In this document: positions 27,759 through 59,440 of the stretch, piece by piece
Layout: every line of letters begins with the position of its first letter
How positions within the stretch are numbered: position 1 is the first letter of the stretch
Sequence record: OK283619.1
Direction: 5' to 3' (one strand)
Source of the DNA: Escherichia phage LPEK22
Length of the DNA stretch: 64,000 bases
Program-made: the position numbers and the translations under genes
Notes under the pieces: model-generated
Databases searched by the model: none
What the model was told of the DNA's origin: nothing
Seen by the model: the letters and a program-made list of their open reading frames with translations, nothing else

Positions 27759-27766
27759 CTAAATAT
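27759..27766 (+). promoter_or_regulatory. late promoter motif CTAAATAT
   Basis: CTAAATAT about 40 nt upstream of the first late gene; same motif recurs before other late genes. Confidence 0.45.
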
Positions 27767-27805
27767 CTTCAACACCATATTCAAACTCAGGTGATGGAGA
27801 TTATC

Positions 27806-29587
27806 ATGGCCACGCAAACAGTTCCTTCACTCGACGTCAGAGCATTTGAATACATTATTAAACAGCGAATGAAAGCTGATCCCACCTTTAAAGATTATGA
27901 CTTTGAAGGTTCTGGTCTTAGTGCGATTATTCGTTTGTTGGCATCTGACGCGAACGCCATAGCCTTTATGCAAAACATGCTTAATGGTGAAGGCCATTTG
28001 AAGACAGCAAATCAACGTTCAAACGTCGGTTTATCTGCTGCATTTCTTTCCTACACGCCTGACAACTATCGGGCAGCATACATGTATGTCAACATCAAAG
28101 TTACGCCTTATGACGCCAGCACAGCCCCCAATGAGATCATCATGGATCGGCGCGTAATGTTCGTTGGGGCAAAAGACGGCAGTTCCTACAACTTTACTGT
28201 TGAGAAACCAGTGTCGGCAACGTTGACTGCAGACGGTTATTACATGTTCAACAATGTAAAGTTGGTACAGGGGAATTGGTTGTACAAGACATATGATGTT
28301 GAAGGAAGCGCGATTTCAACATATACGATTCCTTCTGGGAATGTCGATATCAATCATATGGTCGTGCAAGTACAAGAATCAGAGTCTTCCGACGTTTCGA
28401 CGACATATCAACGTTACAACAGTCCATTTGATCTGAGCCAATATGCCTACCTGTATTTCGTAGAATTGGGTATTGATGGTCTGTATGTGTTTGAATTCGG
28501 AGATGGTTATCTTTCGCGTCGAGTAGAAGATGGGAACGTCATATTCCTTCAATACTTAGAAACTTCTGGTGCTGATGGGAATGATATTACAAGCCTGTCA
28601 TCAGCGTCATCCATAGGCGGGTTTAACCAGGTCGACGTAGAATTGGTTTCCGAACGTAGCGCAGGTGGAGACGATCCGGAATCTATTGAGGACACTAAAC
28701 GGTTGGCTCCTTTAGCTTATCAGGCTGATGGTGCGGCGGTTACAGAAACAGATTATGGTGTATTGACTGAAAGGTTATTCTCCAACGTCTCCCGAGCTAA
28801 ATCATATGGTGGTGACACGCTGTCTCCTCCTGATTCTGGCTATGTTTACATCGCTGTTATACCTTCTGTTGGTGAGACACTTTCGGACGCTGAGAAGGCC
28901 GATATCGTTGCTGCTCTGGACAAGTATAATGTGGGATCTATTACCCCCAAAGTGGTAGACTCCGAGATCACATATATCCAAGTCTCAACGACTATATTTT
29001 GGGATCCTACTTCTACAGTCTACGTTGAAGAACAGATGAAAGTTGTTGTTGGAAACAGTATCGTTAAATGGGGTGAAAATAATCTCGGCGGATTTGACCA
29101 ATTGTTTGACAAAGAAATATTGCAGGAAGCAATTACAAAAATGGAACGTTCTATCAACTCGAATATTACTTCAGTTGGTTATAAACGCCATTTTAAACCT
29201 GATTATGGAGTCTTAGACAGTTTCACATTCAGTTATGGACGAAGTATCAAACCTGGTTCTGTGAAAATAACGGGGTTCAAACCGCTTCCTGCCGAGGTGG
29301 ATTTCACTTACTACATGCGCGACAATAATGGCGATTTGAACATGTATAAAGTGAATAACAATGACACGACAAAAGAGTTTTTAGTTCAAAAAACAGGGGT
29401 TGTGGATTATGCAAATGGGGTTGTAGACCTTCAGCAGATCACGGTCTCTAACTATAACCCTGAAGGGGTGACCATAGTCGTGTTACCGGATGGACTGAAC
29501 CAGAACATACAGGCTACACAAAACCAAGTATTCAAGATTGGTGATGTGGTTGTTACGCCAGAGGTGCGCTATGTCCAAAGATCTTAA
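27806..29587 (+). CDS. baseplate wedge protein (gp6/Baseplate-J-like), putative
   Basis: 594 aa from ATG 27806 (GGAG RBS; MATQTVPSLD...); first gene of the late block; size and position fit a baseplate wedge subunit; no motif verified. Confidence 0.45.
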   Translation: MATQTVPSLDVRAFEYIIKQRMKADPTFKDYDFEGSGLSAIIRLLASDANAIAFMQNMLNGEGHLKTANQRSNVGLSAAFLSYTPDNYRAAYMYVNIKVTPYDASTAPNEIIMDRRVMFVGAKDGSSYNFTVEKPVSATLTADGYYMFNNVKLVQGNWLYKTYDVEGSAISTYTIPSGNVDINHMVVQVQESESSDVSTTYQRYNSPFDLSQYAYLYFVELGIDGLYVFEFGDGYLSRRVEDGNVIFLQYLETSGADGNDITSLSSASSIGGFNQVDVELVSERSAGGDDPESIEDTKRLAPLAYQADGAAVTETDYGVLTERLFSNVSRAKSYGGDTLSPPDSGYVYIAVIPSVGETLSDAEKADIVAALDKYNVGSITPKVVDSEITYIQVSTTIFWDPTSTVYVEEQMKVVVGNSIVKWGENNLGGFDQLFDKEILQEAITKMERSINSNITSVGYKRHFKPDYGVLDSFTFSYGRSIKPGSVKITGFKPLPAEVDFTYYMRDNNGDLNMYKVNNNDTTKEFLVQKTGVVDYANGVVDLQQITVSNYNPEGVTIVVLPDGLNQNIQATQNQVFKIGDVVVTPEVRYVQRS

Positions 29588-30425
29588 TAATGGACACAAC
29601 GGGGTTAAGTATGAAACTCCGTTGTTCTACCAGAATGATTTCCCTCTGTTCATAGAATTTATGGACACGTTCTTCAATTGGTTGTATAGACAGCAGGGGT
29701 TCACTCAAGAAGAGATCTTGGCATATCTGGCAGATACGTCTAGTTGGATGAATCCTGAGAGTGAAGATTCTCCGGTTAAACAGCTGATTGATTTAAAGGC
29801 TGACAAGACTCCAGGCTCAGAGGCCAAGGATTATTTGTCTGATAAATTCTTGGTTCGTACCTTTGAGAACATGATGGCTCTGGATGCCGAAGAACTTTTA
29901 GATGCCGACGGAAGGCCGCTACTGTCAATAGAAGATAAGAACAAACAGATAGATGACTGGTATAATGATTTTGGTTTCCAACGAACCGTTGATAAATCAT
30001 TTCAGGAATTTGGTCATTTTATCCCAGTTGGTTCGGATTCTTTGTTGACAACCACGGGCGATACGTTCTCTGTTTATATCGAAGGAACTAAACGAAGAAC
30101 TCTGGATCATCCGCGTTGGCTGAAATTGTTGAAACACATCTATAAAATACGTGGAACAAAGAAAGCGATTGAATTGTTCTTTTGGATATATTTCGGTTGT
30201 CCAGTCAGCGTCTATTTTACGAAAGAAGACATAGGCGGTCTGGACGGAAATTTTGAATGTGACGGCACGACAGGGATGCGTGATGATTACTATTATGATG
30301 AATACACTTATGTTATAGGAGTCCCAGGCGACGTATCTGATTTTGAAGGTGTGTTTGAGCGCGTCTTCCGTCAGCATTTTCATCCTGCTGGATTTACTGT
30401 ATTCCTAGAAAGCACAAGGAGCTAA
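29571..30425 (+). CDS. baseplate/tail-fibre-associated protein, putative
   Basis: About 284 aa from internal ATG (MSKDLNNGHNG...), overlapping the upstream gene end. Confidence 0.4.
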   Translation: MSKDLNNGHNGVKYETPLFYQNDFPLFIEFMDTFFNWLYRQQGFTQEEILAYLADTSSWMNPESEDSPVKQLIDLKADKTPGSEAKDYLSDKFLVRTFENMMALDAEELLDADGRPLLSIEDKNKQIDDWYNDFGFQRTVDKSFQEFGHFIPVGSDSLLTTTGDTFSVYIEGTKRRTLDHPRWLKLLKHIYKIRGTKKAIELFFWIYFGCPVSVYFTKEDIGGLDGNFECDGTTGMRDDYYYDEYTYVIGVPGDVSDFEGVFERVFRQHFHPAGFTVFLESTRS

Positions 30426-30427
30426 AA

Positions 30428-31620: not shown

Positions 31621-31631
31621 CTAAATACCCC
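31621..31631 (+). promoter_or_regulatory. late promoter motif CTAAATACCCC with downstream 5'UTR hairpin
   Basis: CTAAATACCCC then inverted repeat TACCCCTA...TAGGGGTA immediately before ATG 31665. Confidence 0.5.
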
Positions 31632-31664
31632 TAGATGACATGAATACATTTAGGGGTATTACAA

Positions 31665-34600
31665 ATGGCCAACAAACCAACACAGCCTCTTTTCCCTTTG
31701 GGTTTAGAAACTTCTGAGTCTTCGAACATAAAAGGCTTCAACAACTCCGGCACTATTGAGCATTCCCCTGGTGCCGTAATGACATTTCCTGAAGATACTG
31801 AAGTTACAGGTCTTCCATCTTCTGTACGTTACAATCCTGATAGTGATGAATTTGAAGGTTATTACGAAAACGGTGGTTGGTTGTCTTTGGGGGGCGGTGG
31901 AATACGCTGGGAAACGCTCCCTTACGCTCCCTCTAGCAATTTGTTAGAAGGTCGTGGTTATCTCATTAATAATACCACAGGGACATCTACAGTGGTTCTC
32001 CCTTCCCCTACGCGTATTGGGGATTCCGTTACTATTTGTGATGCTTATGGGAAATTTGCCACTTACCCATTGACCGTGTCTCCTTCTGGAAATAATTTGT
32101 ATGGCTCCACTGAAGACATGGCTATAACAACTGATAACGTATCAGCAACGTTCACTTGGTCTGGACCTGAACAAGGTTGGGTTATCACATCCGGCGTCGG
32201 TCTTGGCCAAGGCCGTGTCTACAGTCGTGAAATCTTTACACAAATTTTGGCGTCTGAAACAAGTGCTGTCACTCTCAATACTCCACCAACAATCGTGGAC
32301 GTGTATGCTGACGGAAAACGTCTTGCGGAATCCAAATATTCACTAGATGGGAATGTAATCACTTTCAGTCCTTCTTTGCCAGCCAACACAGAACTTCAGG
32401 TGATTGAATATACTCCGATTCAATTGGGTAATGGCGGTGGTTCTGGTTCTTCTACGATTACCTGGGTCTATAATGGGGGTTCAGCGATTGGCGGTGAAAC
32501 CGAAATCACGTTAGACATCGTTGTTGATGATGTTCCGGCCATTGATATAAACGGAAGTCGCCAGTATAAAAATCTGGGGTTCACATTCGATCCATTAACC
32601 AGTAAAATCACTCTTGCGCAAGAACTGGATGCAGAGGATGAAGTTGTTGTAATTATCAATGGAACGCCAAACATCTATAATCAAATTGATTATACTTTGC
32701 GGGAAGTGGCTCGTGTAACCAATGTTAAAGATACAGAGGTCGTTTATTTTAGTGTTGGTGCTGTGTTAAGCGGGTATAAAGTTATCTACGATAAAATAAC
32801 ACAGAGATCATATTTTATTCCAGAGTTACCGACTGGAACCACGGCAGTCAGCCTTAGTTCTTCGGCTGTGCTTGTACATTCTGCTGGTAGTGTTGATCTG
32901 GGCGCATTAGCTGTATCTCGTGAAGAATATGTTACCTTGGCTGGGACATTTGATTCTGGTGCTGTCATCAATACTAAAAATGAATTACTCACCCATACTG
33001 ATGGAAAGTATCGTTGGGATGGTACACTTCCTAAAACTGTAGCTGCTGGCTCAACACCTGCAACAACTGGAGGCGTTGGTTCGGGAGCGTGGTTGAGTGT
33101 TGGTGATGCCACTGCCCGCCAGTGGGTAGCTAATAATTATATCAATAGTAAATTCGAGAAGTTTGGGTCTTTCTTGCAAGGTTCAGTTTTAACCACCAAC
33201 GAGCAAGCTCTTGTTGATTCAAGTGGTCTTTTCTGGGTTAAATATGGTGCTATACAAAGTGGTGGTTATACAGTAGCGCCGGGAACTGTTCCAGACTATC
33301 CCGATTTTTACTGTGTTGGATATTTAACAGATTATGATTGGCAGTCTGTTACAAACTGGGGTGCTGATAACAACTATTCTATCGCAGATAAGATCGGTGT
33401 AGACGCGGTCGATGCTATAAACCTCGCAGGTTATCATGCGGAGAAACGTGCGGAACTATTCGGATCCCAGCAAGTTGTCATGGTTCCTGCTGGCACTTAT
33501 CTGTTGGATAAAACGACTCTTGTGGAAGGCACGGCGCATGGTCTGACTATTTATCGTAATCAGGAAGTTATGATTTTTCTTCGCAACAACGTTACTTTCA
33601 TCGGCGATGGCGACGCAACGTTACTGTATGTTGCCGATGGTGTTGTTGAGCGCAATAAGGAAAACGGGGGCACTAAAGGCTTTGTAGTTTTCGGTGATGG
33701 TATTCGTGAAATTCAGAACGCATATGTCCACGATATGCTAATTGATGAAAATGGTGACAATAACCTTGTCCCGCCATTGAACTGGTCTGGAGCACAAGCT
33801 CATTGTCCAGCAGTAGCTTGTTACGAAGGTAGTAATGGTGTGACTGTTTCTGGAGTTAACGTCAAGAATGCTCCTGGTGCAAACGTAATGGTATTCCAGG
33901 AAGCTCAGGCAGCGTTCAACAGCTACAATACGCGTGTAGAGAATTGCAACTTCTATCGCGTTGCTGACGCTGTGACTGGAAACAGTAACCTAATAGACCA
34001 CTCATCAATAAGAATTCATTCCGATGGCTACGTTATAAATAACGTTAAATGTATCCAGCCAACCATGTCAGACATGTGTACGGTATTTGAGTGTCATGGT
34101 AATGGGATCGTTGATGGATGCATCACCAAAAAAGCTCGCTACCCATTCCTGAAGGCTAACGACGGTGCTACATCGACATCTATAGTCACCTTCACAAATA
34201 ACGTCTGTGAGGACGCAGGTAGTGCTTTGGTTCTGGATACCGTACCTAACGTTACAACTGTTGCCAGATTTATTGGTAATACTGTAACGCTACGATCAGA
34301 AAAGCAAGTTATCGGGTATCCTAATACTGCGGCATTCACAACACAGCAGCCGTCTGTTTTGTCATCTGACCCAACCACTATTAATGCAATTATTTACTCT
34401 GCAAATAATAACATATTGCAAAAAAACAGAGCCGCAGATTGGACAACTGAACAAAAAGCTGCAAACGTTGCTTATGACCTGGACTATTTCAAAGAAGTTG
34501 TTAGTGAAAATAACACTTTCTCAGGTTTTTGGGGGTGTGTTCGCTTGGGTAAACAAAAAACAGGTGCTACTTTCAACAGCAATGACTCTTTTGTCTCTTG

Positions 34601-35168
34601 CGGGACCAACGGTTCACCTCAATTATCAGACAACACAGCCATAAGGTTTACCAATAAATTTGCCAACGATTATCTTGTTCACCTTGATGAAATGCATATT
34701 AAATGGAATATGACAAAATGTCAGTTTGGTGGTGTCCTGGGTTTATTGCAACAAGCAGCAGGAGTGACTGTTGGTGTTGTGCAATTCACTGCTGATATTA
34801 AAACAGATAGATGGATGCATCCAGCGCTTGGGATAGCTCCACTATCCGTACAGGATTACTACTTCAACATTGATGTATACAGTGATGTGAATACCAGTGA
34901 ACCTTTATACGGATACGCTGGTATTCATGGGCAAATTAATGTTGACTCGCCAACTCAACCATATGTTAAACAATTTTACAAATACAAACCAAACACCCAG
35001 AATGGATGGTGGTTTAAAGGCATTTTAGCAACTGACACAACTTCTGTTCCTGACAGGCCTTTTGGTAATGCGTCTGGTGACAGATATGATGTTATTGCTG
35101 GGGCATCAAATATTTTCGGGTATCGACATAATGGTACAACATGGGATGCAATGAAATTTACATCATAG
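31665..35168 (+). CDS. tailspike protein, long form (N-terminal anchor region + shared module + C-terminal catalytic/receptor-binding domain)
   Basis: 1167 aa; shares the module VKDTEVVYFSVGAVLSGYKVIYDKITQRSY...KYRWDGTLPK...GAWLSVGDA with the three downstream genes; Gly/Asn-rich C-terminal region. Confidence 0.75.
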   Translation: MANKPTQPLFPLGLETSESSNIKGFNNSGTIEHSPGAVMTFPEDTEVTGLPSSVRYNPDSDEFEGYYENGGWLSLGGGGIRWETLPYAPSSNLLEGRGYLINNTTGTSTVVLPSPTRIGDSVTICDAYGKFATYPLTVSPSGNNLYGSTEDMAITTDNVSATFTWSGPEQGWVITSGVGLGQGRVYSREIFTQILASETSAVTLNTPPTIVDVYADGKRLAESKYSLDGNVITFSPSLPANTELQVIEYTPIQLGNGGGSGSSTITWVYNGGSAIGGETEITLDIVVDDVPAIDINGSRQYKNLGFTFDPLTSKITLAQELDAEDEVVVIINGTPNIYNQIDYTLREVARVTNVKDTEVVYFSVGAVLSGYKVIYDKITQRSYFIPELPTGTTAVSLSSSAVLVHSAGSVDLGALAVSREEYVTLAGTFDSGAVINTKNELLTHTDGKYRWDGTLPKTVAAGSTPATTGGVGSGAWLSVGDATARQWVANNYINSKFEKFGSFLQGSVLTTNEQALVDSSGLFWVKYGAIQSGGYTVAPGTVPDYPDFYCVGYLTDYDWQSVTNWGADNNYSIADKIGVDAVDAINLAGYHAEKRAELFGSQQVVMVPAGTYLLDKTTLVEGTAHGLTIYRNQEVMIFLRNNVTFIGDGDATLLYVADGVVERNKENGGTKGFVVFGDGIREIQNAYVHDMLIDENGDNNLVPPLNWSGAQAHCPAVACYEGSNGVTVSGVNVKNAPGANVMVFQEAQAAFNSYNTRVENCNFYRVADAVTGNSNLIDHSSIRIHSDGYVINNVKCIQPTMSDMCTVFECHGNGIVDGCITKKARYPFLKANDGATSTSIVTFTNNVCEDAGSALVLDTVPNVTTVARFIGNTVTLRSEKQVIGYPNTAAFTTQQPSVLSSDPTTINAIIYSANNNILQKNRAADWTTEQKAANVAYDLDYFKEVVSENNTFSGFWGCVRLGKQKTGATFNSNDSFVSCGTNGSPQLSDNTAIRFTNKFANDYLVHLDEMHIKWNMTKCQFGGVLGLLQQAAGVTVGVVQFTADIKTDRWMHPALGIAPLSVQDYYFNIDVYSDVNTSEPLYGYAGIHGQINVDSPTQPYVKQFYKYKPNTQNGWWFKGILATDTTSVPDRPFGNASGDRYDVIAGASNIFGYRHNGTTWDAMKFTS
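32700..33125 (+). repeat. shared tailspike N-terminal module, copy 1
   Basis: DNA/protein similarity to 35325-35750 and 40360-40790; approximate coordinates. Confidence 0.6.
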
Positions 35169-35174
35169 TAAAAA

Positions 35175-35195
35175 CCCCGCTTCGGCGGGGTTCTT
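35175..35195 (+). terminator. intrinsic terminator CCCCGC-TTCG-GCGGGG
   Basis: Hairpin followed by TTCTT; same stem-loop reused at four other sites. Confidence 0.6.
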
Positions 35196-35231
35196 ATTAT
35201 ATCCATGTTTATAAAATTTTGTTAATTCAGA

Positions 35232-35242
35232 CTAAATACCCC
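35232..35242 (+). promoter_or_regulatory. late promoter motif CTAAATACCCC
   Basis: Motif followed by hairpin CCCCATA-N12-TATGGGG that ends 7 nt before ATG 35272. Confidence 0.5.
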
Positions 35243-35271
35243 ATATTGGTCATCCTTTATGGGGTATTATC

Positions 35272-37368
35272 ATGATTTCTCAATTCAATCAACCACGCGG
35301 CTCCACTTCCATAGAAGTTAACAAACAATCTATCGCTCGAAATTTCGGTGTCAAAGAAGACGAAGTCATTTATTTCACTGTCGGTATTGATCTCAGCGGA
35401 TTTAAAGTAATTTATGATGAGTCTACCCAACGGGCTTATTCTCTTCCTTCAGGTATTGTTTCAGGAACGACTGCGATAAGTCTGAACGAACAAGCCATCC
35501 TTACTCATTCTTCTGGCTCTGTTGATCTCGGGGAATTAGCAGTAAGCCGCGAAGAATATGTGACTTTACCTGGTTCTTTTAATTTCGGCCATACTATTAA
35601 TGTGAAAAATGAACTTCTTGTTCACGATGATGAAAAATATCGATGGGATGGTGCATTACCTAAAGTTGTTCCTGCTGGTTCAACTCCAGCATCAACTGGT
35701 GGCGTTGGTTTAGGTGCTTGGGTTAGTGTTGGTGATGCTGCATTTAGGCAGGAAGCTAATAAGAAATTCAAATATTCAGTAAAGTTATCTGATTATTCTA
35801 CATTACAGGATGCAGCGACAGCAGCCGTAGATGGATTGCTTATTGATGTTGACTACACTTTTACTGCAGATGAGAATGTAGATTTTAGCGGTAAAGTTTT
35901 AATCATTGAATGCAAAGGAAAATTCATTGGCGATGGTATGTTGGTTTGGAATGGTTTGGGTGCGGGCTCAGTAATTAAGAAACCGCACATGCATACTAAA
36001 ACTACGCCGTATACTGTTTACCGATTCGATGCAAACGGTAATTGGGTTACAGACCCAACACAAGTTCTGGCATCTGTTCAGCAGCGTTTGGATGTTGGAT
36101 ATAAGCCAAATATTAACGATTTAGATATTTGGGACGACCTTCCTGATAATGTAAAAAATCAGGTTGCTGGTGCTACTTTGCGAATAATGAGCGGCGATAA
36201 TATCATCGTAGAGAACCCAGAAGCTACATTTGGTGGTTATCTATTTACTTTATGTAATAGGATTCTTGTTAAGAATCCACGCAATTTTATTGCTTTGGAA
36301 TCGGGCATTACATTTGAGAACCATCATACAACTGCATGGGGTACTGGCAACTGGGTTGTTGGGGGTGAGATAAAATATGGCTCTGGTTCCGCTGTACTGT
36401 TCATTCGCAATGATGGTGGTACAGACCATGATGGTGGAGTAAGGGATTTAATCTCATACCGTGTTGGAGAATCAGGTATTAAAACCTATCAGAACGAAAT
36501 TGGAGGTCGTTCAGCCAGGAACTACCGTTTAGTGTTCGACAATATAACTACAATCCAGTGTTACTATGATGGTATTGATGTTAATGCTGACACAGGGTCG
36601 CCAACTGAACGTGTGGATGACTACTCACTCGCAGAGTATCCATGGTTCCACCTACCTACTCAACATATCATCCGTAATATTATTACTCGTGATTGTATGG
36701 GGATTGGTGCTTGGTGGGATGGTCAGAAAAATATTATTGATAATGTTGTTACTTATGAGGCCCATAAGGAAGGCGTCTTCGATAGGGGTACTAACAATGA
36801 TATTACTAACATTACTGTAGTAGGTGCGAATAAGGATTTAACTAACCTAAATCAGCTTACCTGTGAGGGAGGTAGTAGACTTCGTGGTATTAACATCCAT
36901 GCATATACTACACAAGGTTACGCTATATACGCTCCGTCTTCAGAAGTAAGTAATGTTTCCTGTGCTGGTTCCGGTACTAAGAAATTACTATGTACCTATA
37001 TAAGCGATATTCAGGGAGGTAATATCAATGTTCAGCATAGTGCCAACCAAATGACACTTGCAATGCAACCTGCTATGGGTGGTACTACAAACCCATCTTT
37101 GCTTATGACGGCAGATTGCCAGGTTGCTACACCAGGGGGTGAGGCAAGTATTGTCAAGCTTTCGGCAATTCAGGAGGGTGTACGTGTAGGTGAGTTTCAG
37201 CTTAACCGCTTAGGCTTTAAGCATATGAGTATACCTGCTGCCCCTTTACAATTACCAGAGAGCGCTCTGGAACATAATTCATCTATAGGATTCTTCTTCG
37301 GAAGTGACGGAGCATTGAGGTTGCTTGCTAAAAAACCAGATGGAAGTTATGTAACATACACACTTTAA
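35272..37368 (+). CDS. tailspike protein, short form (shared module at extreme N-terminus)
   Basis: 698 aa; begins directly with VKEDEVIYFTVGIDLSGFKVIYDESTQRAYSLP...KYRWDGALPK...GAWVSVGDA; distinct C-terminal domain. Confidence 0.75.
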   Translation: MISQFNQPRGSTSIEVNKQSIARNFGVKEDEVIYFTVGIDLSGFKVIYDESTQRAYSLPSGIVSGTTAISLNEQAILTHSSGSVDLGELAVSREEYVTLPGSFNFGHTINVKNELLVHDDEKYRWDGALPKVVPAGSTPASTGGVGLGAWVSVGDAAFRQEANKKFKYSVKLSDYSTLQDAATAAVDGLLIDVDYTFTADENVDFSGKVLIIECKGKFIGDGMLVWNGLGAGSVIKKPHMHTKTTPYTVYRFDANGNWVTDPTQVLASVQQRLDVGYKPNINDLDIWDDLPDNVKNQVAGATLRIMSGDNIIVENPEATFGGYLFTLCNRILVKNPRNFIALESGITFENHHTTAWGTGNWVVGGEIKYGSGSAVLFIRNDGGTDHDGGVRDLISYRVGESGIKTYQNEIGGRSARNYRLVFDNITTIQCYYDGIDVNADTGSPTERVDDYSLAEYPWFHLPTQHIIRNIITRDCMGIGAWWDGQKNIIDNVVTYEAHKEGVFDRGTNNDITNITVVGANKDLTNLNQLTCEGGSRLRGINIHAYTTQGYAIYAPSSEVSNVSCAGSGTKKLLCTYISDIQGGNINVQHSANQMTLAMQPAMGGTTNPSLLMTADCQVATPGGEASIVKLSAIQEGVRVGEFQLNRLGFKHMSIPAAPLQLPESALEHNSSIGFFFGSDGALRLLAKKPDGSYVTYTL
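35325..35750 (+). repeat. shared tailspike N-terminal module, copy 2
   Basis: See copy 1; approximate coordinates. Confidence 0.6.
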
Positions 37369-37441: not shown

Positions 37442-37452
37442 CTAAATACCCC
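37442..37452 (+). promoter_or_regulatory. late promoter motif CTAAATACCCC
   Basis: Same arrangement as upstream of gene 35272. Confidence 0.5.
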
Positions 37453-37483
37453 ATATTGGCAAATCCTTATGGGGTATTTTCAA

Positions 37484-42666: not shown

Positions 42667-42674
42667 CTAAATAT
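42667..42674 (+). promoter_or_regulatory. late promoter motif CTAAATAT (TATAAATG nearby)
   Basis: Upstream of ATG 42706; GGAG RBS. Confidence 0.4.
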
Positions 42675-42705
42675 CTCTATAAATGGCACTCTATGGAGCA
42701 TCAAA

Positions 42706-49181: not shown

Positions 49182-49190
49182 CTAAATACC
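49182..49190 (+). promoter_or_regulatory. late promoter motif CTAAATACC
   Basis: About 22 nt upstream of ATG 49212. Confidence 0.45.
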
Positions 49191-49211
49191 TTCAAAATTG
49201 AGGGTAAAGTC

Positions 49212-49853
49212 ATGGCTACTTCAAAATATTTCAACTATACAGCACATCAAGGTACTCAAAAATTAATTGATGACTTGGTGGTCGAGATGATACAATTGCG
49301 TGGGATTGACGTCAAGTATATCCCACGTTCTATTGTTGAAAAATACCCAATTTTAAACGAGGCCGAACACAAATTCGACCAAGCGTTTGACATCGAAGTG
49401 TATATGCAGGATTATCAAGGCTTCAACACACAGATGTGGGAAAAGTTCGGCGGTATCCAATTACAAGATGAAGTGACATTCACTATTGCTCGTCGTCGTT
49501 TTTCAGAAGTTATTGGTAATGGTCCAGGCCTTGAACAAATGCCTCAAGAAGGTGATTTGATATATCTGCCTATGGCTAACAAAATATTTAAAGTGAATAA
49601 CCCGAATAACGATGAAGAATTCATGCAATTTGGGAAATGGTACACATATTCCCTACCATGTACGTTGTTCCAATACGGTAACGAAGATTTCGATACAGGT
49701 GTATCTGAAATAGACGATATTGATAAACGATTGCAGGATCTGGAAGGAGACGGTGTGTACAAAGACGCCAGCCTGCAAACGGATAACCAATTTGCGGACG
49801 AAATAGAGAAAGATCTTTCGCCCAATAAAATGAAGATAGACTTCGGGGAATAA
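49212..49853 (+). CDS. neck protein (gp14-like by position), putative
   Basis: 213-aa ORF; synteny only. Confidence 0.45.
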   Translation: MATSKYFNYTAHQGTQKLIDDLVVEMIQLRGIDVKYIPRSIVEKYPILNEAEHKFDQAFDIEVYMQDYQGFNTQMWEKFGGIQLQDEVTFTIARRRFSEVIGNGPGLEQMPQEGDLIYLPMANKIFKVNNPNNDEEFMQFGKWYTYSLPCTLFQYGNEDFDTGVSEIDDIDKRLQDLEGDGVYKDASLQTDNQFADEIEKDLSPNKMKIDFGE

Positions 49854-53431: not shown

Positions 53432-53439
53432 CTAAATAT
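53432..53439 (+). promoter_or_regulatory. late promoter motif CTAAATAT
   Basis: About 42 nt upstream of ATG 53481. Confidence 0.45.
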
Positions 53440-53480
53440 CTTTCAAATTGAGCGAAACTCTACCGAGAAGGAATAACATT

Positions 53481-55376
53481 ATGGCAACTCAAAGCTTCAG
53501 CGTTGCGCCGTCCGTTCAGTGGACTGAGCGTGATGCCACGCTTCAGACGTCCCCGTCCGTTGTTGTTCAGGGCGCGACCGTCGGCAAATTTCAATGGGGT
53601 GAAGTTGAACTTCCAGTGCTGGTGACTGGTGGTGAGACAGGTTTGGTGAAGAAATTCTTCAAACCCAACGACAGTACTGCGACAGATTTCCTTGTGATTG
53701 CAGACTTTTTGTCTTACAGCTCTATGGCATGGGTGACTCGTGTTGTTGGTCCTCTGGCCAAGAACTCTGTCACCAAAGGCCAGACAGCCATCACGATCAA
53801 AAACAAGCTGGATTTTGAAACAGCAAGTCCGTCAGCGTCTATCACTTGGGCTGGTCGTTATCCAGGTTCCCTGGGTAATGATATTGCTATCAATGTTTGT
53901 GACTCCGCTGGATTTCCGACCTGGGAATTCCGCAACAACTTTGCGTACGCACCTCAGTCTGGTGAATTCCATGTTGTGGTTGTAGACAAAGTTGGGCGCA
54001 TTACTGACTCTGAAGGCGCAGTCGGTCAGGTTGATCGTATATCTGTTTCTGGCACGGCAACTGCAGCTGGCACCATCAGTGTGGCAGGTGAAGATATTGC
54101 ATATCTGGATACTGATACTCCGGCCACTTTGGCGACCAAAATCGGCGCGGCGCTGACGGCGCTGACAGATGTTTATTCTTCTGTCGTTGTTAAGTCTAAC
54201 ACTGTCATCGTGACCCATAAAGCTATTGGTCCCCAGACAGTTACTGCTATTGTTCCAGATGATAAGGGGCTGACTGCAACCGCCGTGATTACCACTGTTG
54301 GCGCATCTGGTTCTATTATCGAAAAATACGAACTCATGCAGAACACACAGGGTTCCAAAAAGTCCGATGGCGCGAATGCGTACTTCAAAGATGTCATCAA
54401 TGATACATCAAATTGGGTGTACACCTTCGCTACCGCTCTGGCCGCAGGTGTTGTTGAATTAGAAGGCGGCGTAGACGATTATAACATCAACCGCGTGGCG
54501 GCTATCCAAGTCTTGAACAATGCCGAAGCATATGATGCGAAGCCAGTATTTGCATACTGTGAAGAGTTGATTGAGCAACAAGCATTGATCGACTTATCTA
54601 CTGAGCGAAAAGATACAGTATCTTTCGTATCCCCGCTCCGTGATACGGTTGTTGGCAACCGTGGTCGTGAAATGGATGATGTCGTTGCTTGGCGTGAAAG
54701 CCTTGTTCGCGACTCTTCTTATTTCTTCATGGATGATAACTGGGCATATGTGTACGACAAGTACAACGACAAAATGCGTTGGATTCCGGCTTGTGGTGGC
54801 ACCGCAGGTGTTTGGGCGCGAAGCATTGAAATCGCGGGTATCTACAAATCTCCGGCGTTCCACAACCGTGGTAAATACAACAACTATAATCGAATGGCGT
54901 GGTCTGCGTCTTCTGATGAACGTGCTGTGTTGTACCGCAATCAGATCAACAGCATCGTAACCTTCTCCAATGAAGGCATCGTCCTGTATGGTGACAAAAC
55001 TGGCCTGACCCGCCCGTCGGCGTTTGACCGTATCAACGTTCGTGGCCTGTTCATCATGGCTGAGCAGAACATCGCCGCAATCGCCAAATACTATCTTGGT
55101 GAGAACAATGACGCGTTTACACGTAGTCTGTTCAGCAATGCGGTTCGTCCATATATTCGCCAGCTGGCAAATATGGGCGCGATTTACGATGGTAAAGTCA
55201 AGTGTGATGAAGATAACAACACTGCTGATGTCATTGCGGCAAACCAAATGGTTGCTGGTATCTGGTTGAAGCCTGAGTACAGCATAAATTGGGTGTATCT
55301 TGACTTTGCTGCAGTTCGACCAGATATGGAGTTCAGCGAAATCGAATCCGGTGGCGGCATCGTTGCTGCTTCATAA
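53481..55376 (+). CDS. tail sheath protein (gp18-like)
   Basis: 631 aa from ATG 53481 (AAGGA RBS; MATQSFSV...); follows terminase as in T4; size fits sheath. Confidence 0.65.
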   Translation: MATQSFSVAPSVQWTERDATLQTSPSVVVQGATVGKFQWGEVELPVLVTGGETGLVKKFFKPNDSTATDFLVIADFLSYSSMAWVTRVVGPLAKNSVTKGQTAITIKNKLDFETASPSASITWAGRYPGSLGNDIAINVCDSAGFPTWEFRNNFAYAPQSGEFHVVVVDKVGRITDSEGAVGQVDRISVSGTATAAGTISVAGEDIAYLDTDTPATLATKIGAALTALTDVYSSVVVKSNTVIVTHKAIGPQTVTAIVPDDKGLTATAVITTVGASGSIIEKYELMQNTQGSKKSDGANAYFKDVINDTSNWVYTFATALAAGVVELEGGVDDYNINRVAAIQVLNNAEAYDAKPVFAYCEELIEQQALIDLSTERKDTVSFVSPLRDTVVGNRGREMDDVVAWRESLVRDSSYFFMDDNWAYVYDKYNDKMRWIPACGGTAGVWARSIEIAGIYKSPAFHNRGKYNNYNRMAWSASSDERAVLYRNQINSIVTFSNEGIVLYGDKTGLTRPSAFDRINVRGLFIMAEQNIAAIAKYYLGENNDAFTRSLFSNAVRPYIRQLANMGAIYDGKVKCDEDNNTADVIAANQMVAGIWLKPEYSINWVYLDFAAVRPDMEFSEIESGGGIVAAS

Positions 55377-55434: not shown

Positions 55435-55893
55435 ATGATATACGCATACAAAATTGAAACGATAACTAATGGAAAGGTCTACATCGGTGTGACCAATCAC
55501 CCACAACGAAGATATGATCAGCATTTTGCGAATGCTTTTCATCATGGAGTCCAAAGTGAATTGTATGATGCTATGCGTAAGTATGGAACATCTGGATTTA
55601 CTTTCGTTGTAATTGCTCAGACCGATGAAGTCCATAAATGGGAATTAGAGAAGCAACTCATCGCTCAATATAATTCTTATGAGATGGGTTACAACATGAA
55701 TAAAGGCGGTAATGATGGAAGTCATATGCTGGGTAAAACTGCAGCAAAATTGACATCCACAGGTGAACACATTGGTCTTGTTTCTCTCATAGATCCCCGT
55801 TGGGAATTGTGTGAAATCGAACCTGTTTCAAGTAATGTTCATCATGGTTTCGATCTTTCTTCCATGAAGATTAAAAGATTGACGACTAATTAG
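55435..55893 (+). CDS. GIY-YIG homing endonuclease (free-standing)
   Basis: 152 aa; N-terminal IYAYKIETITNGKVYIGVTNHPQRRYDQH matches the GIY-(N10)-YIG motif with conserved Arg; inserted between sheath and tube genes. Confidence 0.75.
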   Translation: MIYAYKIETITNGKVYIGVTNHPQRRYDQHFANAFHHGVQSELYDAMRKYGTSGFTFVVIAQTDEVHKWELEKQLIAQYNSYEMGYNMNKGGNDGSHMLGKTAAKLTSTGEHIGLVSLIDPRWELCEIEPVSSNVHHGFDLSSMKIKRLTTN

Positions 55894-56457: not shown

Positions 56458-56524
56458 TGTCCTCGGTGCTGGGGGAATGTTATTCCCCCTCACTAATTAC
56501 AAGAAAACGTTGAGGACTTAGATC

Positions 56525-58207: not shown

Positions 58208-58214
58208 AGTTCAA

Positions 58215-58222
58215 CTAAATAT
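58215..58222 (+). promoter_or_regulatory. late promoter motif CTAAATAT
   Basis: About 27 nt upstream of ATG 58249. Confidence 0.45.
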
Positions 58223-58248
58223 AGAAAATTAATTCGGAGATCAAAATC

Positions 58249-58419
58249 ATGAGCGCAATTGATATCGTTCGTGCAGTAATTGACGGTGACACTGAAACTG
58301 CTGTTGCAGAATGCAACATGGAACTTGATGCACGTAGTCAAGAACTATTAAACCAAGGCACAGCATATGTTCTGGATTCTATCGCAGCTGATATGAATTC
58401 AAACAACAACGGCCAGTAA
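58249..58419 (+). CDS. small acidic prohead core protein (gp67-like), putative
   Basis: Hand-translated 56-aa ORF (MSAIDIVRAVIDGDTETAVAECNMELDARSQELLNQGTAYVLDSIAADMNSNNNGQ), below track cutoff; GGAG RBS. Confidence 0.45.
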   Translation: MSAIDIVRAVIDGDTETAVAECNMELDARSQELLNQGTAYVLDSIAADMNSNNNGQ

Positions 58420-58427
58420 GGAGATGC

Positions 58428-58745
58428 ATGATGGAAATCACAGAGATCGCCACGTTCGCTGATTTCCTGGCCTCTCGTATGGACGAGCAGCGAGTCATCG
58501 ATAAAGTGAACGCTCGTGGTAAACGCCGCCGCCGCTTGAAATGTGCCCCTGGGTTCAAATTGTCGGCTGATGGTTCACGTTGTGAAGTCATGGATGCCAG
58601 CGAACGTCGTGTGCGCAAAATCGGCAACCGAAAAGCTCTTCGCTCCAAAAAGCGTATGGGTATGGGCTACCAACGAAAAATCGAGCGTCGTAAGAAAAAG
58701 GCTATGAAGTTCCGCAAAATGATGGGACTGAGTAAGAACAAGTAA
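58428..58745 (+). CDS. basic prohead core protein (gp68-like), putative
   Basis: 105 aa, very Arg/Lys-rich; AAGGAG RBS; between portal and protease. Confidence 0.5.
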   Translation: MMEITEIATFADFLASRMDEQRVIDKVNARGKRRRRLKCAPGFKLSADGSRCEVMDASERRVRKIGNRKALRSKKRMGMGYQRKIERRKKKAMKFRKMMGLSKNK

Positions 58746-58752
58746 GGAGTTT

Positions 58753-59421
58753 ATGATGAAACTGTTGCGTGAGATCACAGCGATAGGGAAGGATCTTCAA
58801 ATCGGTGAGGATACGACCTCAACTGGTGGGAAGGCCATGTTCATCGAAGGTCCGTTTGTGATGTGTAACCAAGTAAACCGGAACGGGCGTAACTATGATC
58901 TACAGAAAGTGGGTATCCCTGCTGTCGAAGCATATGACAAAGAGTATATCCAAGATCGTCGCGCAATCGGTGAAGTCACACATCCTGACTATCCTTTCCC
59001 TAATCTGGTGGAAGCAGCGCTCAAAACCGAATCCCTTCGCTGGGAAGGCACCAATGCCATCGGTCGGGCGCGAATTTTAAATACACCAAAAGGCCAAATC
59101 ATACGTGCATTGGCTGAAGCAGACTTCAATCTGGCCGTGTCTACACGTGGTCTGGGTGAGACCAAGTCAGTAAACGGTTATGACGACGTTCAACCTGGCT
59201 TTATGCTCACCGCTGTTGATGCAGTCGACCGTCCTTCTGGACAAGTTTGTTATGTTAAGGCTGTGAGTGAATCTGTTGAATGGCAGCTTGATGAGGCTTC
59301 TGGTATTTGGATGCCTCGGGATGTTAAAGGAAACGTTGTTGATCAGTTGGTGAAAGCCAATATTCAAGTAGAAGACGACTTCCTGCGCCGCCTTGATGCA
59401 GCATTGAATCATCTGGGCTGA
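58753..59421 (+). CDS. prohead core protease (gp21-like)
   Basis: 222 aa; position before scaffold and capsid; GPFVMCNQVNRNGRNY...GEVTHPD...STRGLGE fits the T4 gp21 pattern as recalled. Confidence 0.65.
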   Translation: MMKLLREITAIGKDLQIGEDTTSTGGKAMFIEGPFVMCNQVNRNGRNYDLQKVGIPAVEAYDKEYIQDRRAIGEVTHPDYPFPNLVEAALKTESLRWEGTNAIGRARILNTPKGQIIRALAEADFNLAVSTRGLGETKSVNGYDDVQPGFMLTAVDAVDRPSGQVCYVKAVSESVEWQLDEASGIWMPRDVKGNVVDQLVKANIQVEDDFLRRLDAALNHLG

Positions 59422-59432
59422 AATTCAGCTCA

Positions 59433-59440
59433 CTAAATAC
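59433..59440 (+). promoter_or_regulatory. late promoter motif CTAAATAC
   Basis: About 28 nt upstream of ATG 59468. Confidence 0.45.

What the first reader, a model, noticed from the sequence alone, without database searches (positions are those of the whole stretch)
27759..59440. Recurrent CTAAATA(c/t) motif 20-45 nt upstream of late structural genes
CTAAATA followed by C or T occurs at 27759, 31621, 35232, 37442, 42667, 49182, 53432, 58215 and 59433, always in the leader of a plus-strand structural gene. It is a variant of the T4 late promoter TATAAATA and matches the late-promoter motif reported for ViI-like phages. I did not find it in the minus-strand early block.
Basis: partly seen in the sequence, partly recalled or inferred. 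Interest (0 to 1): 0.45.

Follow-up and report, generated by a model that had tools for sequence, protein, structure and literature searches.

The report
Phage late promoters with built-in translation locks
The repeated CTAAATA(C/T) signal is real and is the known late-gene promoter of this phage family, and about half the copies sit inside a hairpin that should hide the ribosome-binding site on transcripts started further upstream, as phage T4 does at a few genes.

Summary
The window is a Kuttervirus (family Ackermannviridae), about 99% identical to Salmonella phages S115 and SFP10. All nine reported CTAAATA(C/T) sites exist at the stated coordinates, each 23-42 nt before a plus-strand start codon.

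The motif is far from chance. In the near-identical S115 genome, CTAAATA is the most leader-enriched of all 7-mers (17 of 23 copies, p=7e-21). It is 96% conserved across six genera where its flanks are about 50% conserved. The genome type encodes gp55, gp33 and gp45 homologues.

So the late-promoter reading is supported, but it is already known: the LIMEstone1 GenBank record marks the orthologous hexamers as putative late promoters.

CTAAATACCCC at 19886(-) and five A/C-TAAATA variants precede genes there.

One thing is added here. At about half the sites the bases just after the motif pair with the gene's own Shine-Dalgarno sequence. With T4 spacing, late transcripts would start inside the 5' arm and leave that sequence free. 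This matches T4 genes e, soc, 49 and I-TevI. In S115 it occurs at the endolysin and a RuvC-like resolvase. Transcript starts are inferred, not measured.

The parts
27759..27808 (+). Late promoter CTAAATAT (27759-27766). The hairpin at 27765-27801 has a 3' arm that contains the Shine-Dalgarno GGAG. ATG is at 27806 (gp6 baseplate wedge). This is the first plus-strand gene after the divergent junction.
   Evidence: MFE -11.6 kcal/mol; probability that the Shine-Dalgarno hexamer is unpaired: 0.00 on the long RNA, 0.35 on the predicted late RNA. Conserved in Limestonevirus.
31621..31667 (+). Late promoter CTAAATAC (31621-31628). The 14-bp hairpin at 31624-31660 (AATACCCCTAGAT/ATTTAGGGGTATT) includes the Shine-Dalgarno GGGG. 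ATG is at 31665 (tailspike 4).
   Evidence: (-19.1 kcal/mol). Orthologues in four genera.
35232..35274 (+). Late promoter CTAAATAC (35232-35239). The hairpin at 35235-35268 (AATACCCCATA/TATGGGGTATT) includes the Shine-Dalgarno GGGG. ATG is at 35272 (tailspike 3).
   Evidence: (-19.6 kcal/mol).
37442..37486 (+). Late promoter CTAAATAC (37442-37449). The hairpin at 37444-37479 includes the Shine-Dalgarno GGGG. ATG is at 37484 (tailspike 2). Tailspike 1 (ATG 40300) has no motif of its own and is probably co-transcribed.
   Evidence: (-16.7 kcal/mol).
35167..35272 (+). A cassette of about 110 nt: a canonical terminator (CCCCGCTTCGGCGGGG plus T-rich tail, 35173-35192), a spacer, then the promoter and hairpin. 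It is duplicated at 37378-37482 with 86-87% identity. The terminator part alone recurs at 42611-42663.
42667..42708 (+). Late promoter CTAAATAT (42667-42674). A weak 7-bp hairpin at 42675-42698 (CTCTATA/TATGGAG) includes the Shine-Dalgarno GGAG. ATG is at 42706 (VriC-like 1612-aa structural protein).
   Evidence: -4.5 kcal/mol; only the motif, the Shine-Dalgarno sequence and the spacing are conserved across seven phages.
49182..49214 (+). Late promoter CTAAATAC (49182-49189). The hairpin at 49187-49206 (CCTTCA/TGAGGG) includes the Shine-Dalgarno GAGGG. ATG is at 49212 (gp14 neck protein).
   Evidence: -9.2 kcal/mol; hairpin kept in Taipeivirus and Agtrevirus, lost in Limestonevirus, MAM1 and Bue1.
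53432..53483 (+). Late promoter CTAAATAT (53432-53439). A weak stem at 53439-53472 (TCTTTC/GAAGGA) touches the Shine-Dalgarno sequence. ATG is at 53481 (gp18 tail sheath).
   Evidence: (-6.0 kcal/mol).
58215..58251 (+). Late promoter CTAAATAT (58215-58222) with no hairpin. ATG is at 58249 (56-aa ORF, PHROG 4097, unknown function).
59433..59470 (+). Late promoter CTAAATAC (59433-59440). A 5-bp stem at 59440-59455 (CTGAA/TTCAG) abuts but does not cover the Shine-Dalgarno AAGGA. ATG is at 59468 (prohead scaffold).
   Evidence: (-3.5 kcal/mol).
19851..19886 (-). Late promoter CTAAATAC (19886 to 19879 on the minus strand) lies 7 nt after the stop of the upstream co-directional gene. The 11-bp hairpin at 19856-19882 includes the Shine-Dalgarno GGGG. 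ATG is at 19853 (149-aa ART-PolyVal ADP-ribosyltransferase-domain protein).
   Evidence: -18.0 kcal/mol; PF18760, 2.2e-10.
8773..8810 (-). Variant late promoter ATAAATAT (8810 to 8803). The hairpin at 8779-8807 includes the Shine-Dalgarno GAGGA. ATG is at 8775 (55-aa ORF, annotated as a putative membrane protein in S115).
   Evidence: -14.4 kcal/mol; probability that the Shine-Dalgarno hexamer is unpaired: 0.00 then 0.43.
22688..22723 (-). Variant late promoter ATAAATAG (22723 to 22716). The hairpin at 22691-22720 includes the Shine-Dalgarno AGGAGG. ATG is at 22690 (77-aa ORF). The next gene (21929-22447, minus strand) is 83% identical to a LIMEstone1 protein that the record's note calls a confirmed structural protein.
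   Evidence: LIMEstone1 annotates the orthologous TAAATA as a putative late promoter.
19366..19407 (-). Candidate late promoter CTAAATAG (19407 to 19400), 38 nt (T of TAAATA to ATG) before ATG 19368 (152-aa ORF). No Shine-Dalgarno hairpin.
24435..24477 (-). Candidate late promoter CTAAATAA (24477 to 24471), starting one base after the 3' end of tRNA-Met. There is a hairpin at 24445-24469. ATG is at 24437 (65-aa ORF). This call is weaker.
   Evidence: The same arrangement occurs in Dickeya phage Kamild.
60352..60358 (+). CTAAGTA, a one-mismatch promoter candidate 40 nt before the gp23 major capsid ATG (60399). It is orthologous to perfect CTAAATA in Serratia phage MAM1 and Erwinia phage Bue1.
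56493..56499 (+). CTAATTA, a one-mismatch promoter candidate before the gp20 portal gene (ATG 56525). It is orthologous to CTAAATA in MAM1 and Bue1.
55886..55892 (+). CTAATTA, a one-mismatch promoter candidate before the gp19 tail tube gene (ATG 55924). It is orthologous to CTAAATA in MAM1 and Bue1.
10781..10788 (-). CTAAATAT inside a coding sequence (codons 5-7 of a small ORF). Probably a chance copy and not counted as a promoter.

Best explanation
(A/C/T)TAAATA(C/T), most often aCTAAATAy, is the -10-type element of the late promoters of this Kuttervirus. It would be read by host RNA polymerase carrying the phage gp55-like late sigma, helped by the gp33-like co-activator and the gp45-like sliding clamp, with no -35 element. 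By T4 geometry the motif occupies -12 to -6, and transcription would start at the conserved A about six bases after it.

At roughly half of the sites the promoter is built into the 5' arm of a hairpin. The bases that follow the motif (CCCCATA, CTCTATA, CCTTCA, TCCTCAC) pair with the gene's own Shine-Dalgarno sequence 7-10 nt before the ATG. Often ATA of the motif also pairs with TAT after the Shine-Dalgarno sequence.

An RNA that enters from upstream carries both arms, so its ribosome-binding site is sequestered. Where a T-run follows the 3' arm, transcription may also terminate there. An RNA started at the embedded late promoter lacks the 5' arm and can be translated. Expression of these genes is thereby tied to their own late promoter.

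Shown here: the motif, its position, its enrichment and its cross-genus conservation; the hairpins and their gene-specific complementarity; the presence of the late transcription proteins.

Inferred: dependence on gp55, the transcript start point, and the effect on translation.
For: Promoter:
- The window holds 11 CTAAATAY copies against 3.8 expected.
- Across S115, CTAAATA is the top leader-enriched 7-mer: 17 of 23 copies fall in 3.3% of strand space (p=7e-21). For CTAAATAY the figure is 15 of 17 (p=1e-18).
- All leader copies are co-oriented with the gene below.
- TAAATA elements stand at divergent late-gene junctions: gp6, gp48, gp2/gp19-like and gp26.
- The 40-kb late regions of five further genera each have 10-13 properly placed plus-strand copies, and the 22-kb Vibrio phage locus has 5. 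Properly placed minus-strand copies number 0 in five of the six and 4 in Kamild.
- Pairwise identity is 0.96 in the motif against 0.49 and 0.53 in the flanks. The sixth base after the motif is 0.90 conserved and is mostly A, which fits +1.
- There is no information content upstream of -13.
- The gp55-like protein matches PHROG 234 (1.6e-53), the gp33-like protein matches PF16805 (4.6e-19), and the gp45-like protein matches PHROG 223 (1.5e-65).
- LIMEstone1 annotates the orthologous hexamers as late promoters.
- Aeh1 uses CTAAATA (PMC1524935).

Hairpin:
- The segment after each motif pairs with its own Shine-Dalgarno region at -9.7 kcal/mol, against -5.45 for other genes' regions. No permutation out of 20,000 reached this (p=5e-5).
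- The mean probability that the Shine-Dalgarno hexamer is unpaired is 0.22 for 21 TAAATAY genes and 0.47 for 182 others. It is below 0.3 in 15 of 21 against 43 of 182 (Fisher 2e-5).
- Twenty distinct hairpins from six genera keep pairing through compensatory changes: 35 double-change cells against 10.6 in shuffles, 0 of 500 reaching the observed value.
- Predicted late RNAs raise the probability that the Shine-Dalgarno hexamer is unpaired from 0.00 to 0.19-0.43 at gp6, tailspikes 2-4 and the 55-aa gene.
- The strongest hairpins in S115 sit at the endolysin and a RuvC-like resolvase. These are functional counterparts of T4 e and 49, which use this mechanism (PMC3014915; PMC2988022).
Against: - No transcript 5' ends, timing data or gp55 dependence are available for this family in the literature that could be searched.
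- The start point is borrowed from T4.
- Tailspikes 3 and 2 and VriC already have strong canonical terminators about 40 nt upstream of the promoter. Little read-through should therefore reach their hairpins, and any that does would itself be late RNA, so temporal control is not an obvious need there.
- Several hairpins are followed by T-runs and could act mainly as terminators.
- In the predicted late RNAs the Shine-Dalgarno sequence becomes only partly open. At the ADP-ribosyltransferase gene the probability rises only from 0.00 to 0.09.
- The GC-rich CCCC directly after the -10 element differs from the AT-rich downstream segment of T4 late promoters (PMC2988020).
- The loop of the tailspike-class leader is conserved across genera. 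A plain hairpin does not explain this.
- The covariation alignment was built from predicted stems and therefore leans towards pairing.
Confidence: 0.8

Rival explanations
1. The hairpins act mainly as intrinsic terminators or insulators for transcription arriving from upstream. The overlap with the Shine-Dalgarno sequence is secondary. The promoter in the 5' arm simply restarts transcription past the terminator.
For: The stems are GC-rich at the base and flanked by an A-tract (the motif itself). Several have a T-run after them, such as GGGGTATTTTC, GGGGGTATTTTTATG and GGAGGTATTTTCTT. At S115 58532 the motif lies in the loop of a terminator, and at S115 58942 it directly abuts one. This shows that promoter and terminator are often packed together.
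Against: About half of the hairpins lack a T-run, including gp14, gp6, the 55-aa gene and the ADP-ribosyltransferase gene. The constant feature is that the 3' arm is the only Shine-Dalgarno sequence, at a fixed 7-10 nt from the ATG. Tailspikes 3 and 2 already have a dedicated terminator upstream. The simple terminator scan did not call these hairpins. The two functions are not exclusive.
Confidence: 0.2
2. CTAAATA is an RNA-level signal rather than a promoter. It could be a processing site, or the operator of a translational regulator such as the RegA-like protein.
For: The motif is strand-specific and lies at a fairly fixed distance from the start codon. The genome type encodes a RegA-like protein.
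Against: The motif matches the T4 and Aeh1 late -10 element in sequence (PMC1524935; PMC2988020). It stands at divergent junctions, where a promoter is required. It lies 23-42 nt before the ATG, upstream of the translation initiation region where RegA competes with the ribosome (PMC3014915). The genome carries the complete late transcription protein set.
Confidence: 0.05
3. The inverted repeats work at the DNA level, as a palindromic binding site for a dimeric regulator or as a cruciform that modulates opening of the late promoter.
For: The repeat includes part of the -10 element itself (AAATACCCC/GGGGTATTT). The tailspike-class leader, including its loop, is about 90-95% conserved across genera.
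Against: Arm sequences differ from gene to gene while staying complementary. That pattern fits selection for pairing, not for a common protein-binding sequence. G-U pairs are tolerated (CTCTATA/TATGGAG, CCTTCA/TGAGGG, CCCTCAC/GTGGGGG), which points to RNA. Loop lengths range from 4 to 13 nt.
Confidence: 0.07
4. The recurrence is a by-product of AT-rich intergenic composition or of chance.
For: The motif is short and AT-rich. One CTAAATAY copy and several TAAATA copies do lie inside coding sequence.
Against: 0 of 100 shuffles reach the observed count. CTAAATA is the top-ranked leader 7-mer at p=7e-21. There is a strict orientation bias. It forms a 96%-conserved island within leaders that are otherwise about 50% conserved, across six genera.
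Confidence: 0.01

Closest known systems
T4 late promoters (TATAAATA at -13 to -6, read by gp55 with gp33 and the gp45 clamp)
   Same: The core TAAATA is the same, it sits in the -10 position, and there is no -35 element. It lies upstream of virion and lysis genes on either strand. Homologues of gp55, gp33 and gp45 are present (PMC2988020).
   Different: C rather than A is preferred at -12 (14 of 21 TAAATAY sites). The segment just downstream is often GC-rich (CCCC) instead of AT-rich. The gp55 homologue is very diverged: Pfam and PDB sequence searches give nothing, and cyanophage gp55 proteins match at only about 27% identity.
Aeromonas phage Aeh1 late promoter consensus, (a/g)CTAAATA
   Same: The heptamer is identical, with the same preference for a purine before the C. 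In both cases it was found by motif discovery upstream of late-gene orthologues (PMC1524935; PMC2988020).
   Different: Aeh1 belongs to a different phage family. No Aeromonas phage appears among the tblastn hits of the Kuttervirus gp55-like protein as tallied by organism or among the rows shown. The shared C at -12 is therefore not explained by close sigma relatedness.
Putative late promoters annotated in Dickeya phage LIMEstone1 (HE600015) and, from memory, the CTAAATAcCcc consensus of Adriaenssens et al. 2012 for 'Viunalikevirus'
   Same: Same family, same hexamer and orthologous positions: scaffold, gp18, VriC, tailspikes and gp6. SFP10, about 99% identical to this window over the 20 kb compared, was to my recollection part of that comparison.
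   Different: The record marks only six bases as a -10 signal and says nothing about the hairpin or the Shine-Dalgarno pairing. A few of its features are misplaced by several bases. The 2012 paper could not be read here.
T4-type translational control by an RBS-sequestering hairpin with an embedded late promoter (T4 e, soc, 49, I-TevI/II/III, segB; Aeh1 mobE)
   Same: A late promoter lies in the 5' strand of a stem whose 3' strand holds the Shine-Dalgarno sequence. The genes sit downstream of co-directional non-late genes. The same functional classes are hit: a cell-wall lysin and a junction resolvase (PMC3014915; PMC2988022).
   Different: It is used at many more genes here, including tailspikes, baseplate gp6 and neck gp14, which lie inside the late block. 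The proteins are not homologous to the T4 ones: a PF11860 muramidase rather than T4 lysozyme, and a RuvC-like protein rather than endonuclease VII. The stem often extends into the -10 element itself. Nothing has been tested experimentally.

Membership tests
gp55-dependent T4-type late promoter | The phage encodes the late sigma gp55, the co-activator gp33 and the sliding clamp gp45. | tested here: met
   In S115 (99% identical over the 20 kb compared; these genes lie outside the window): PHROG 234 'late sigma transcription factor' at 1.6e-53, PF16805 at 4.6e-19, and PHROG 223 at 1.5e-65.
gp55-dependent T4-type late promoter | A short, conserved, TATAAATA-like element with no conserved -35 element. 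| tested here: met
   TAAATA was the search anchor for the 21 leader sites. Among them C is preferred at -12 and Y follows the motif. Information content is near zero upstream of -13. CTAAATA is the top leader 7-mer.
gp55-dependent T4-type late promoter | Located upstream of late genes (virion, lysis), on either strand. | tested here: met
   gp6, tailspikes, VriC, gp14, gp18 and scaffold in the window. gp2, gp5, gp26, gp48, endolysin and UvsW elsewhere in S115.
gp55-dependent T4-type late promoter | Transcripts start about 6 nt after the element, late in infection, and depend on gp55 and DNA replication. | not testable with these tools
   There is only an indirect hint: the sixth base after the motif is 90% conserved across genera and is mostly A. 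No transcript mapping for this family was found in the papers that could be searched or read.
T4 e/soc/49/I-TevI-type RBS-sequestering hairpin with embedded late promoter | A stable stem whose 3' strand contains the Shine-Dalgarno sequence and/or the start codon. | tested here: met
   In S115, 10 of 21 TAAATAY genes have a probability of 0.03 or less that the Shine-Dalgarno hexamer is unpaired. In the window this holds for gp6, tailspikes 2-4, gp14, the ADP-ribosyltransferase gene and the 55-aa gene. Cognate specificity gives p=5e-5.
T4 e/soc/49/I-TevI-type RBS-sequestering hairpin with embedded late promoter | The late promoter is placed so that late transcripts lack the 5' strand of the stem. 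| tested here: inconclusive
   The 5' arm begins 0-2 nt after the motif, or inside it. With T4 spacing the start falls inside or beyond the arm. The start site itself is assumed, not measured.
T4 e/soc/49/I-TevI-type RBS-sequestering hairpin with embedded late promoter | The gene lies on longer transcripts that start at upstream early or middle promoters. | tested here: inconclusive
   This is plausible for the ADP-ribosyltransferase gene, whose promoter lies 7 nt after a co-directional gene, and for the 55-aa gene, the endolysin and the resolvase. It is not evident for tailspikes 3 and 2 and VriC, which have terminators upstream and late genes before them.
T4 e/soc/49/I-TevI-type RBS-sequestering hairpin with embedded late promoter | Translation is repressed on the long transcript and permitted on the late transcript. 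| not testable with these tools
   This needs reporter fusions, toeprinting or ribosome profiling.

The most novel reading that the evidence does not exclude
Across the Ackermannviridae the late promoter is not a free-standing -10 box. It is one half of a portable 'promoter-in-stem' cassette: terminator, then aCTAAATA, then an anti-Shine-Dalgarno arm, a loop, the Shine-Dalgarno arm and the ATG. This cassette would make translation conditional on where the transcript started.

The tailspike version of this leader is about 90-95% conserved, loop included, between genera whose gp14 neck protein is only 56-81% identical. It might also bind an unknown factor, or serve as the recombination joint through which tailspike modules are swapped.
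Probability: 0.25. Interest if true: 0.5.

Novelty: new member of a known kind. Interest (0 to 1): 0.3.

Why it matters
The motif gives a simple, reliable way to mark late genes in Kuttervirus and related therapeutic or biocontrol phages. That includes late genes hidden inside 'early' blocks, such as a possible virion-delivered ADP-ribosyltransferase.

The hairpin arrangement suggests that the origin-dependent translation control shown in T4 at a handful of genes is a general design rule in a second phage family. It covers the endolysin, a resolvase and the host-range-determining tailspikes here.

This matters for engineering. Swapping tailspike genes without their roughly 110-nt leader cassette, or driving them from foreign promoters upstream of the hairpin, could silence them.

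Tried and rejected
Papers that could not be read:
- Adriaenssens 2012 (PMID 22707043 / PMC4174289).
- The phiMAM1 paper (PMC4178657).
- Gibb & Edgell 2007 (PMC1913452).

Because of this, the published ViI-family consensus and a mapped start for a CTAAATA promoter rest on my memory or on secondary sources.

Literature searches:
- Two searches were too broad and gave nothing useful.
- Searches for late promoters or hairpins in Ackermannviridae returned only annotation names.

Protein searches:
- Pfam has no model that matches the gp55-like protein, and phmmer against PDB chains found nothing. PHROGs was used instead.
- Comparing window tailspike 3 with Bue1 gene 10023 showed no similarity. I had picked the wrong paralogue; its first codons match tailspike 2.

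Ideas rejected or weakened:
- The sigma-70 promoter scan showed no excess at 27000-46999 (42 found against 47.2 +/- 5.9 expected). It did show an excess at 47000-64000 (50 against 27.2 +/- 5.0), which I did not follow up. No listed site in either scan centres on the late motif, although one weak 9-of-12 match at 59440-59469 overlaps the scaffold leader.
- The idea that the promoter-proximal hairpins are the only terminators was weakened by finding canonical terminators about 40 nt upstream.
- A special relationship between the Kuttervirus and Aeh1 gp55 proteins was looked for and not seen.

Full report
**Identity of the window.** Megablast of 27000-47000 finds more than 400 Ackermannviridae records. 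The best are Salmonella phages S115 (100% cover, 99.0% identity), BPS7 and SFP10, all genus Kuttervirus. From gene order and coordinates I inferred that the window corresponds to the reverse complement of S115 from about 97.8 kb, through the record end, to 3.9 kb. No full-length alignment was run. It holds a minus-strand block (rIIA, DNA polymerase, tRNAs, many small genes; 1-27.4 kb) and the plus-strand virion block (gp6 to gp23 and beyond; 27.8-64 kb). I rebuilt the whole S115 genome with its 204 annotated genes, so that genome-wide tests could be run on a 99%-identical sequence.

**The observation.** CTAAATA(C/T) occurs 11 times in the window against 3.84 +/- 1.77 in dinucleotide shuffles, with none of 100 shuffles reaching 11. 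Each ends 23-42 nt before the start codon of gp6, tailspike 4, 3 or 2, VriC, gp14, gp18, a 56-aa ORF or the scaffold gene. The one at 19886 is CTAAATACCCC, 26 nt (motif end to ATG) before the ATG of a 149-aa gene. The one at 10788 lies inside coding sequence.

**More than chance, and positional.** In S115, 14 of 17 CTAAATAY copies are fully intergenic and one more straddles a stop codon, although 91.7% of the genome is coding. All 15 point at a start codon 30-85 nt away. An unbiased scan of every 7-mer in the -70 to -13 leaders of all genes ranks CTAAATA first. Seventeen of its 23 genome copies fall in 3.3% of strand space (p=7e-21). Next come its overlaps TAAATAC and ACTAAAT. ATAAATA also scores.

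Other late genes of S115 use A or T before TAAATA:
- gp19-like, gp26 and gp5-like: ATAAATA.
- gp2, the endolysin and a DUF7217 gene: TTAAATA.
- gp48: CTAAATAG.

In the window, minus-strand genes are preceded by ATAAATAT (8810), ATAAATAG (22723), CTAAATAG (19407), CTAAATAA (24477) and ATAAATAA (26861). The gene after the 22723 site is followed by a protein 83% identical to a LIMEstone1 protein that the record labels a confirmed structural protein. The 'early block' therefore contains late genes.

The gp23, gp20 and gp19 genes have no TAAATA. They carry CTAAGTA (60352) and CTAATTA (56493, 55886) exactly where Serratia phage MAM1 and Erwinia phage Bue1 have CTAAATA.

**Comparative evidence.** I fetched 22-41 kb around gp14 from six phages: Klebsiella phage 0507-KN2-1 (Taipeivirus), Shigella phage Gloob (Agtrevirus), Dickeya phage Kamild (Limestonevirus), Serratia phage MAM1, Erwinia phage Bue1 and Vibrio phage 144E46.1. 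Five of them have 10-13 plus-strand TAAATA copies properly placed before late genes, and the shorter Vibrio locus has 5. On the other strand there are none, except four before minus-strand genes in Kamild.

I anchored eight orthologous leaders on the motif. Mean pairwise identity is 0.49 for the 20 nt before it, 0.96 within it and 0.53 for the 20 nt after it. The base before the C is 0.83 conserved (A). The sixth base after the motif is 0.90 conserved and mostly A. In T4 the box spans -13 to -6 (PMC1524935; PMC2988020), so that base is where +1 would fall.

**Machinery and precedent.** S115 encodes three relevant proteins:
- a gp55-like protein (PHROG 234 'late sigma transcription factor', 1.6e-53);
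- a gp33-like co-activator (PF16805, 4.6e-19);
- a gp45-like clamp (PHROG 223, 1.5e-65).

The sigma is highly diverged. It has no Pfam or PDB sequence match, and its nearest relatives outside the family are cyanophage gp55 proteins at about 27% identity.

CTAAATA is exactly the late consensus derived for Aeromonas phage Aeh1 (PMC1524935). In 2011 the CBA120 paper stated that the ViI-family late sequence was not yet identified (PMC3184105), and the AG3 paper searched with TATAAATA (PMC3121705). By 2012 the LIMEstone1 record carried 'putative late promoter' -10 features. Most of those in the fetched region read TAAATA preceded by C at the orthologous scaffold, gp18, VriC, tailspike and gp6 sites. 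From memory, Adriaenssens et al. 2012 give CTAAATAcCcc for the genus; that paper could not be read here.

**What is added: a hairpin that joins promoter and ribosome-binding site.** Directly after the motif comes a run that is complementary to the gene's own Shine-Dalgarno sequence.
- Tailspikes 3 and 2: AAATACCCCATA...TATGGGGTATTT.
- Tailspike 4: AATACCCCTAGAT...ATTTAGGGGTATT.
- gp14: CCTTCA...TGAGGG.
- VriC: CTCTATA...TATGGAG.
- gp6: TCTTCAA.CACC...GGTG.ATGGAGA.
- The gene at 19853(-): ATACCCCATAC...GTGTGGGGTAT.
- The gene at 8775(-): ATATCCTCAC...GTGAGGATAT.

Predicted free energies range from -9 to -20 kcal/mol, except VriC at -4.5.

Two tests do not depend on choosing the stems.
- The 15 nt after each of 21 TAAATAY motifs pair with their own Shine-Dalgarno region at -9.7 kcal/mol on average, against -5.45 with other genes' regions. 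None of 20,000 permutations reached this.
- The probability that the Shine-Dalgarno hexamer is unpaired averages 0.22 for these genes and 0.47 for the other 182. It is below 0.3 in 15 of 21 against 43 of 182 (Fisher 2e-5).

Twenty distinct hairpins from six genera keep pairing while the arms change (CA/TG, CAT/ATG, CAC/GTG, CTGA/TCAG, ATAAC/GTTAT). There are 35 double-change cells against 10.6 in shuffles. That alignment was built from predicted stems and so leans towards pairing.

**Likely mechanism.** If transcription starts six bases after the motif, the late RNA lacks CCCC or its equivalent. In that case the probability that the Shine-Dalgarno hexamer is unpaired rises from 0.00 to 0.19-0.43 at gp6, tailspikes 2-4 and the 55-aa gene. 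RNAs that enter from upstream would keep the ribosome-binding site closed.

This is the arrangement shown experimentally for T4 e and I-TevI. It is also reported for soc, 49, I-TevII, I-TevIII and segB, and for Aeh1 mobE (PMC3014915; PMC2988022).

In S115 the most stable examples outside the tailspikes are the endolysin (PF11860 muramidase plus PG_binding_1, -18.0 kcal/mol) and a RuvC-like resolvase (-15.3 kcal/mol). These are the functional counterparts of T4 e and 49. Both lie co-directionally inside non-late gene runs. The UvsW-like helicase also has a CTAAATA promoter. From memory, uvsW is a late gene in T4.

**Caveats and rivals.**
- Tailspikes 3 and 2 and VriC have strong canonical terminators about 40 nt before the promoter. 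The whole cassette of about 110 nt (terminator, promoter, hairpin) is duplicated before tailspikes 3 and 2 at 86-87% identity. A temporal role is less obvious there. Insulating each gene from its neighbour is a possible role, but this is inference.
- About half the hairpins are followed by T-runs and may also terminate transcription. At S115 58532 the motif lies in a terminator loop, and at S115 58942 it directly abuts a terminator.
- The tolerated G-U pairs and the gene-specific arms argue for RNA pairing rather than a DNA-binding site.
- The tailspike-class leader is about 90-95% conserved from CTAAATA to the ATG across five genera, loop included, while the sequence before the motif cannot be aligned. 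That loop conservation is unexplained.

**Verdict.** The minus-strand claim is wrong. The hairpin coupling is a new set of instances of a known T4 mechanism. I found no description of it for Ackermannviridae in the literature I could search. Everything about transcript starts, timing and translation remains inference.

Noticed in passing
window 19404-19853 (-): A 149-aa protein with an ART-PolyVal ADP-ribosyltransferase domain (PF18760, 2.2e-10). It is driven by CTAAATACCCC plus a Shine-Dalgarno hairpin, 7 nt after the stop of the upstream co-directional gene. It could be a late-made, virion-delivered analogue of T4 Alt. The CBA120 paper states that ViI-like phages lack Alt and ModA homologues.
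   Followed up: partly
window 27504, 13204, 8588, 5594 (all minus strand); many more in S115: Sigma-70-like promoters of the form TTCAATAA, then 12-16 nt, then TATAAT or TATTAT. The -10 hexamer sits in the loop of a GC-rich stem followed by a T-run. TTCAATA is the fourth most leader-enriched 7-mer. From memory, they resemble the promoter-stem-loop (PeSL) cassettes of RB49/RB43-type phages. The CBA120 paper reported that early promoters could not be identified.
   Followed up: partly
S115 (L002) upstream of the ligase gene 26461-27885 (-): An early-type promoter (TTGAAG...TATAAT) lies in the 5' arm of a stem (TCTCTAGGGTTAT/ATAACCCTGGAGA) whose 3' arm holds the Shine-Dalgarno GGAG. The promoter-in-stem layout is therefore not restricted to late promoters.
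   Followed up: no
window 35232-35274 and 37442-37486; L006 3848, L007 6394 and 8613, L008 10271, L010 9984: The tailspike-class leader, including its loop (TTGGnnATCCTT), is about 90-95% conserved between five genera, while the sequence 5' of the motif cannot be aligned (alignment A2). A simple hairpin model does not explain the loop conservation.
   Followed up: partly
window 60352, 56493, 55886: The genes for the major capsid (gp23), portal (gp20) and tail tube (gp19) proteins carry off-consensus CTAAGTA or CTAATTA in Kuttervirus, Taipeivirus, Agtrevirus and Limestonevirus. Serratia phage MAM1 and Erwinia phage Bue1 have perfect CTAAATA at the same places.
   Followed up: partly
window 24470-24553 (-): tRNA-Met (24478-24553) ends one base before CTAAATAA (24477). 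The same junction is present in Dickeya phage Kamild.
   Followed up: no
window 21929-22447 (-): A 172-aa protein in the 'early' block is 83% identical to LIMEstone1 ORF169, which the record's note calls a confirmed structural protein. It lies downstream of the ATAAATAG promoter candidate at 22723.
   Followed up: yes
window 40250-40300: Tailspike 1 has no TAAATA. Its leader holds the stem CCCCTCTTAGGAGGGG, which the scan calls a terminator on the minus strand only (40274-40257). In S115 this gene is split by a frameshift, while the window copy is intact (770 aa).
   Followed up: no
window 42619-42634 and 55385-55404: GC-rich stem-loops (CCCCGCTTCGGCGGGG) are called as terminators on both strands. 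They are bidirectional terminator candidates inside the late block.
   Followed up: no
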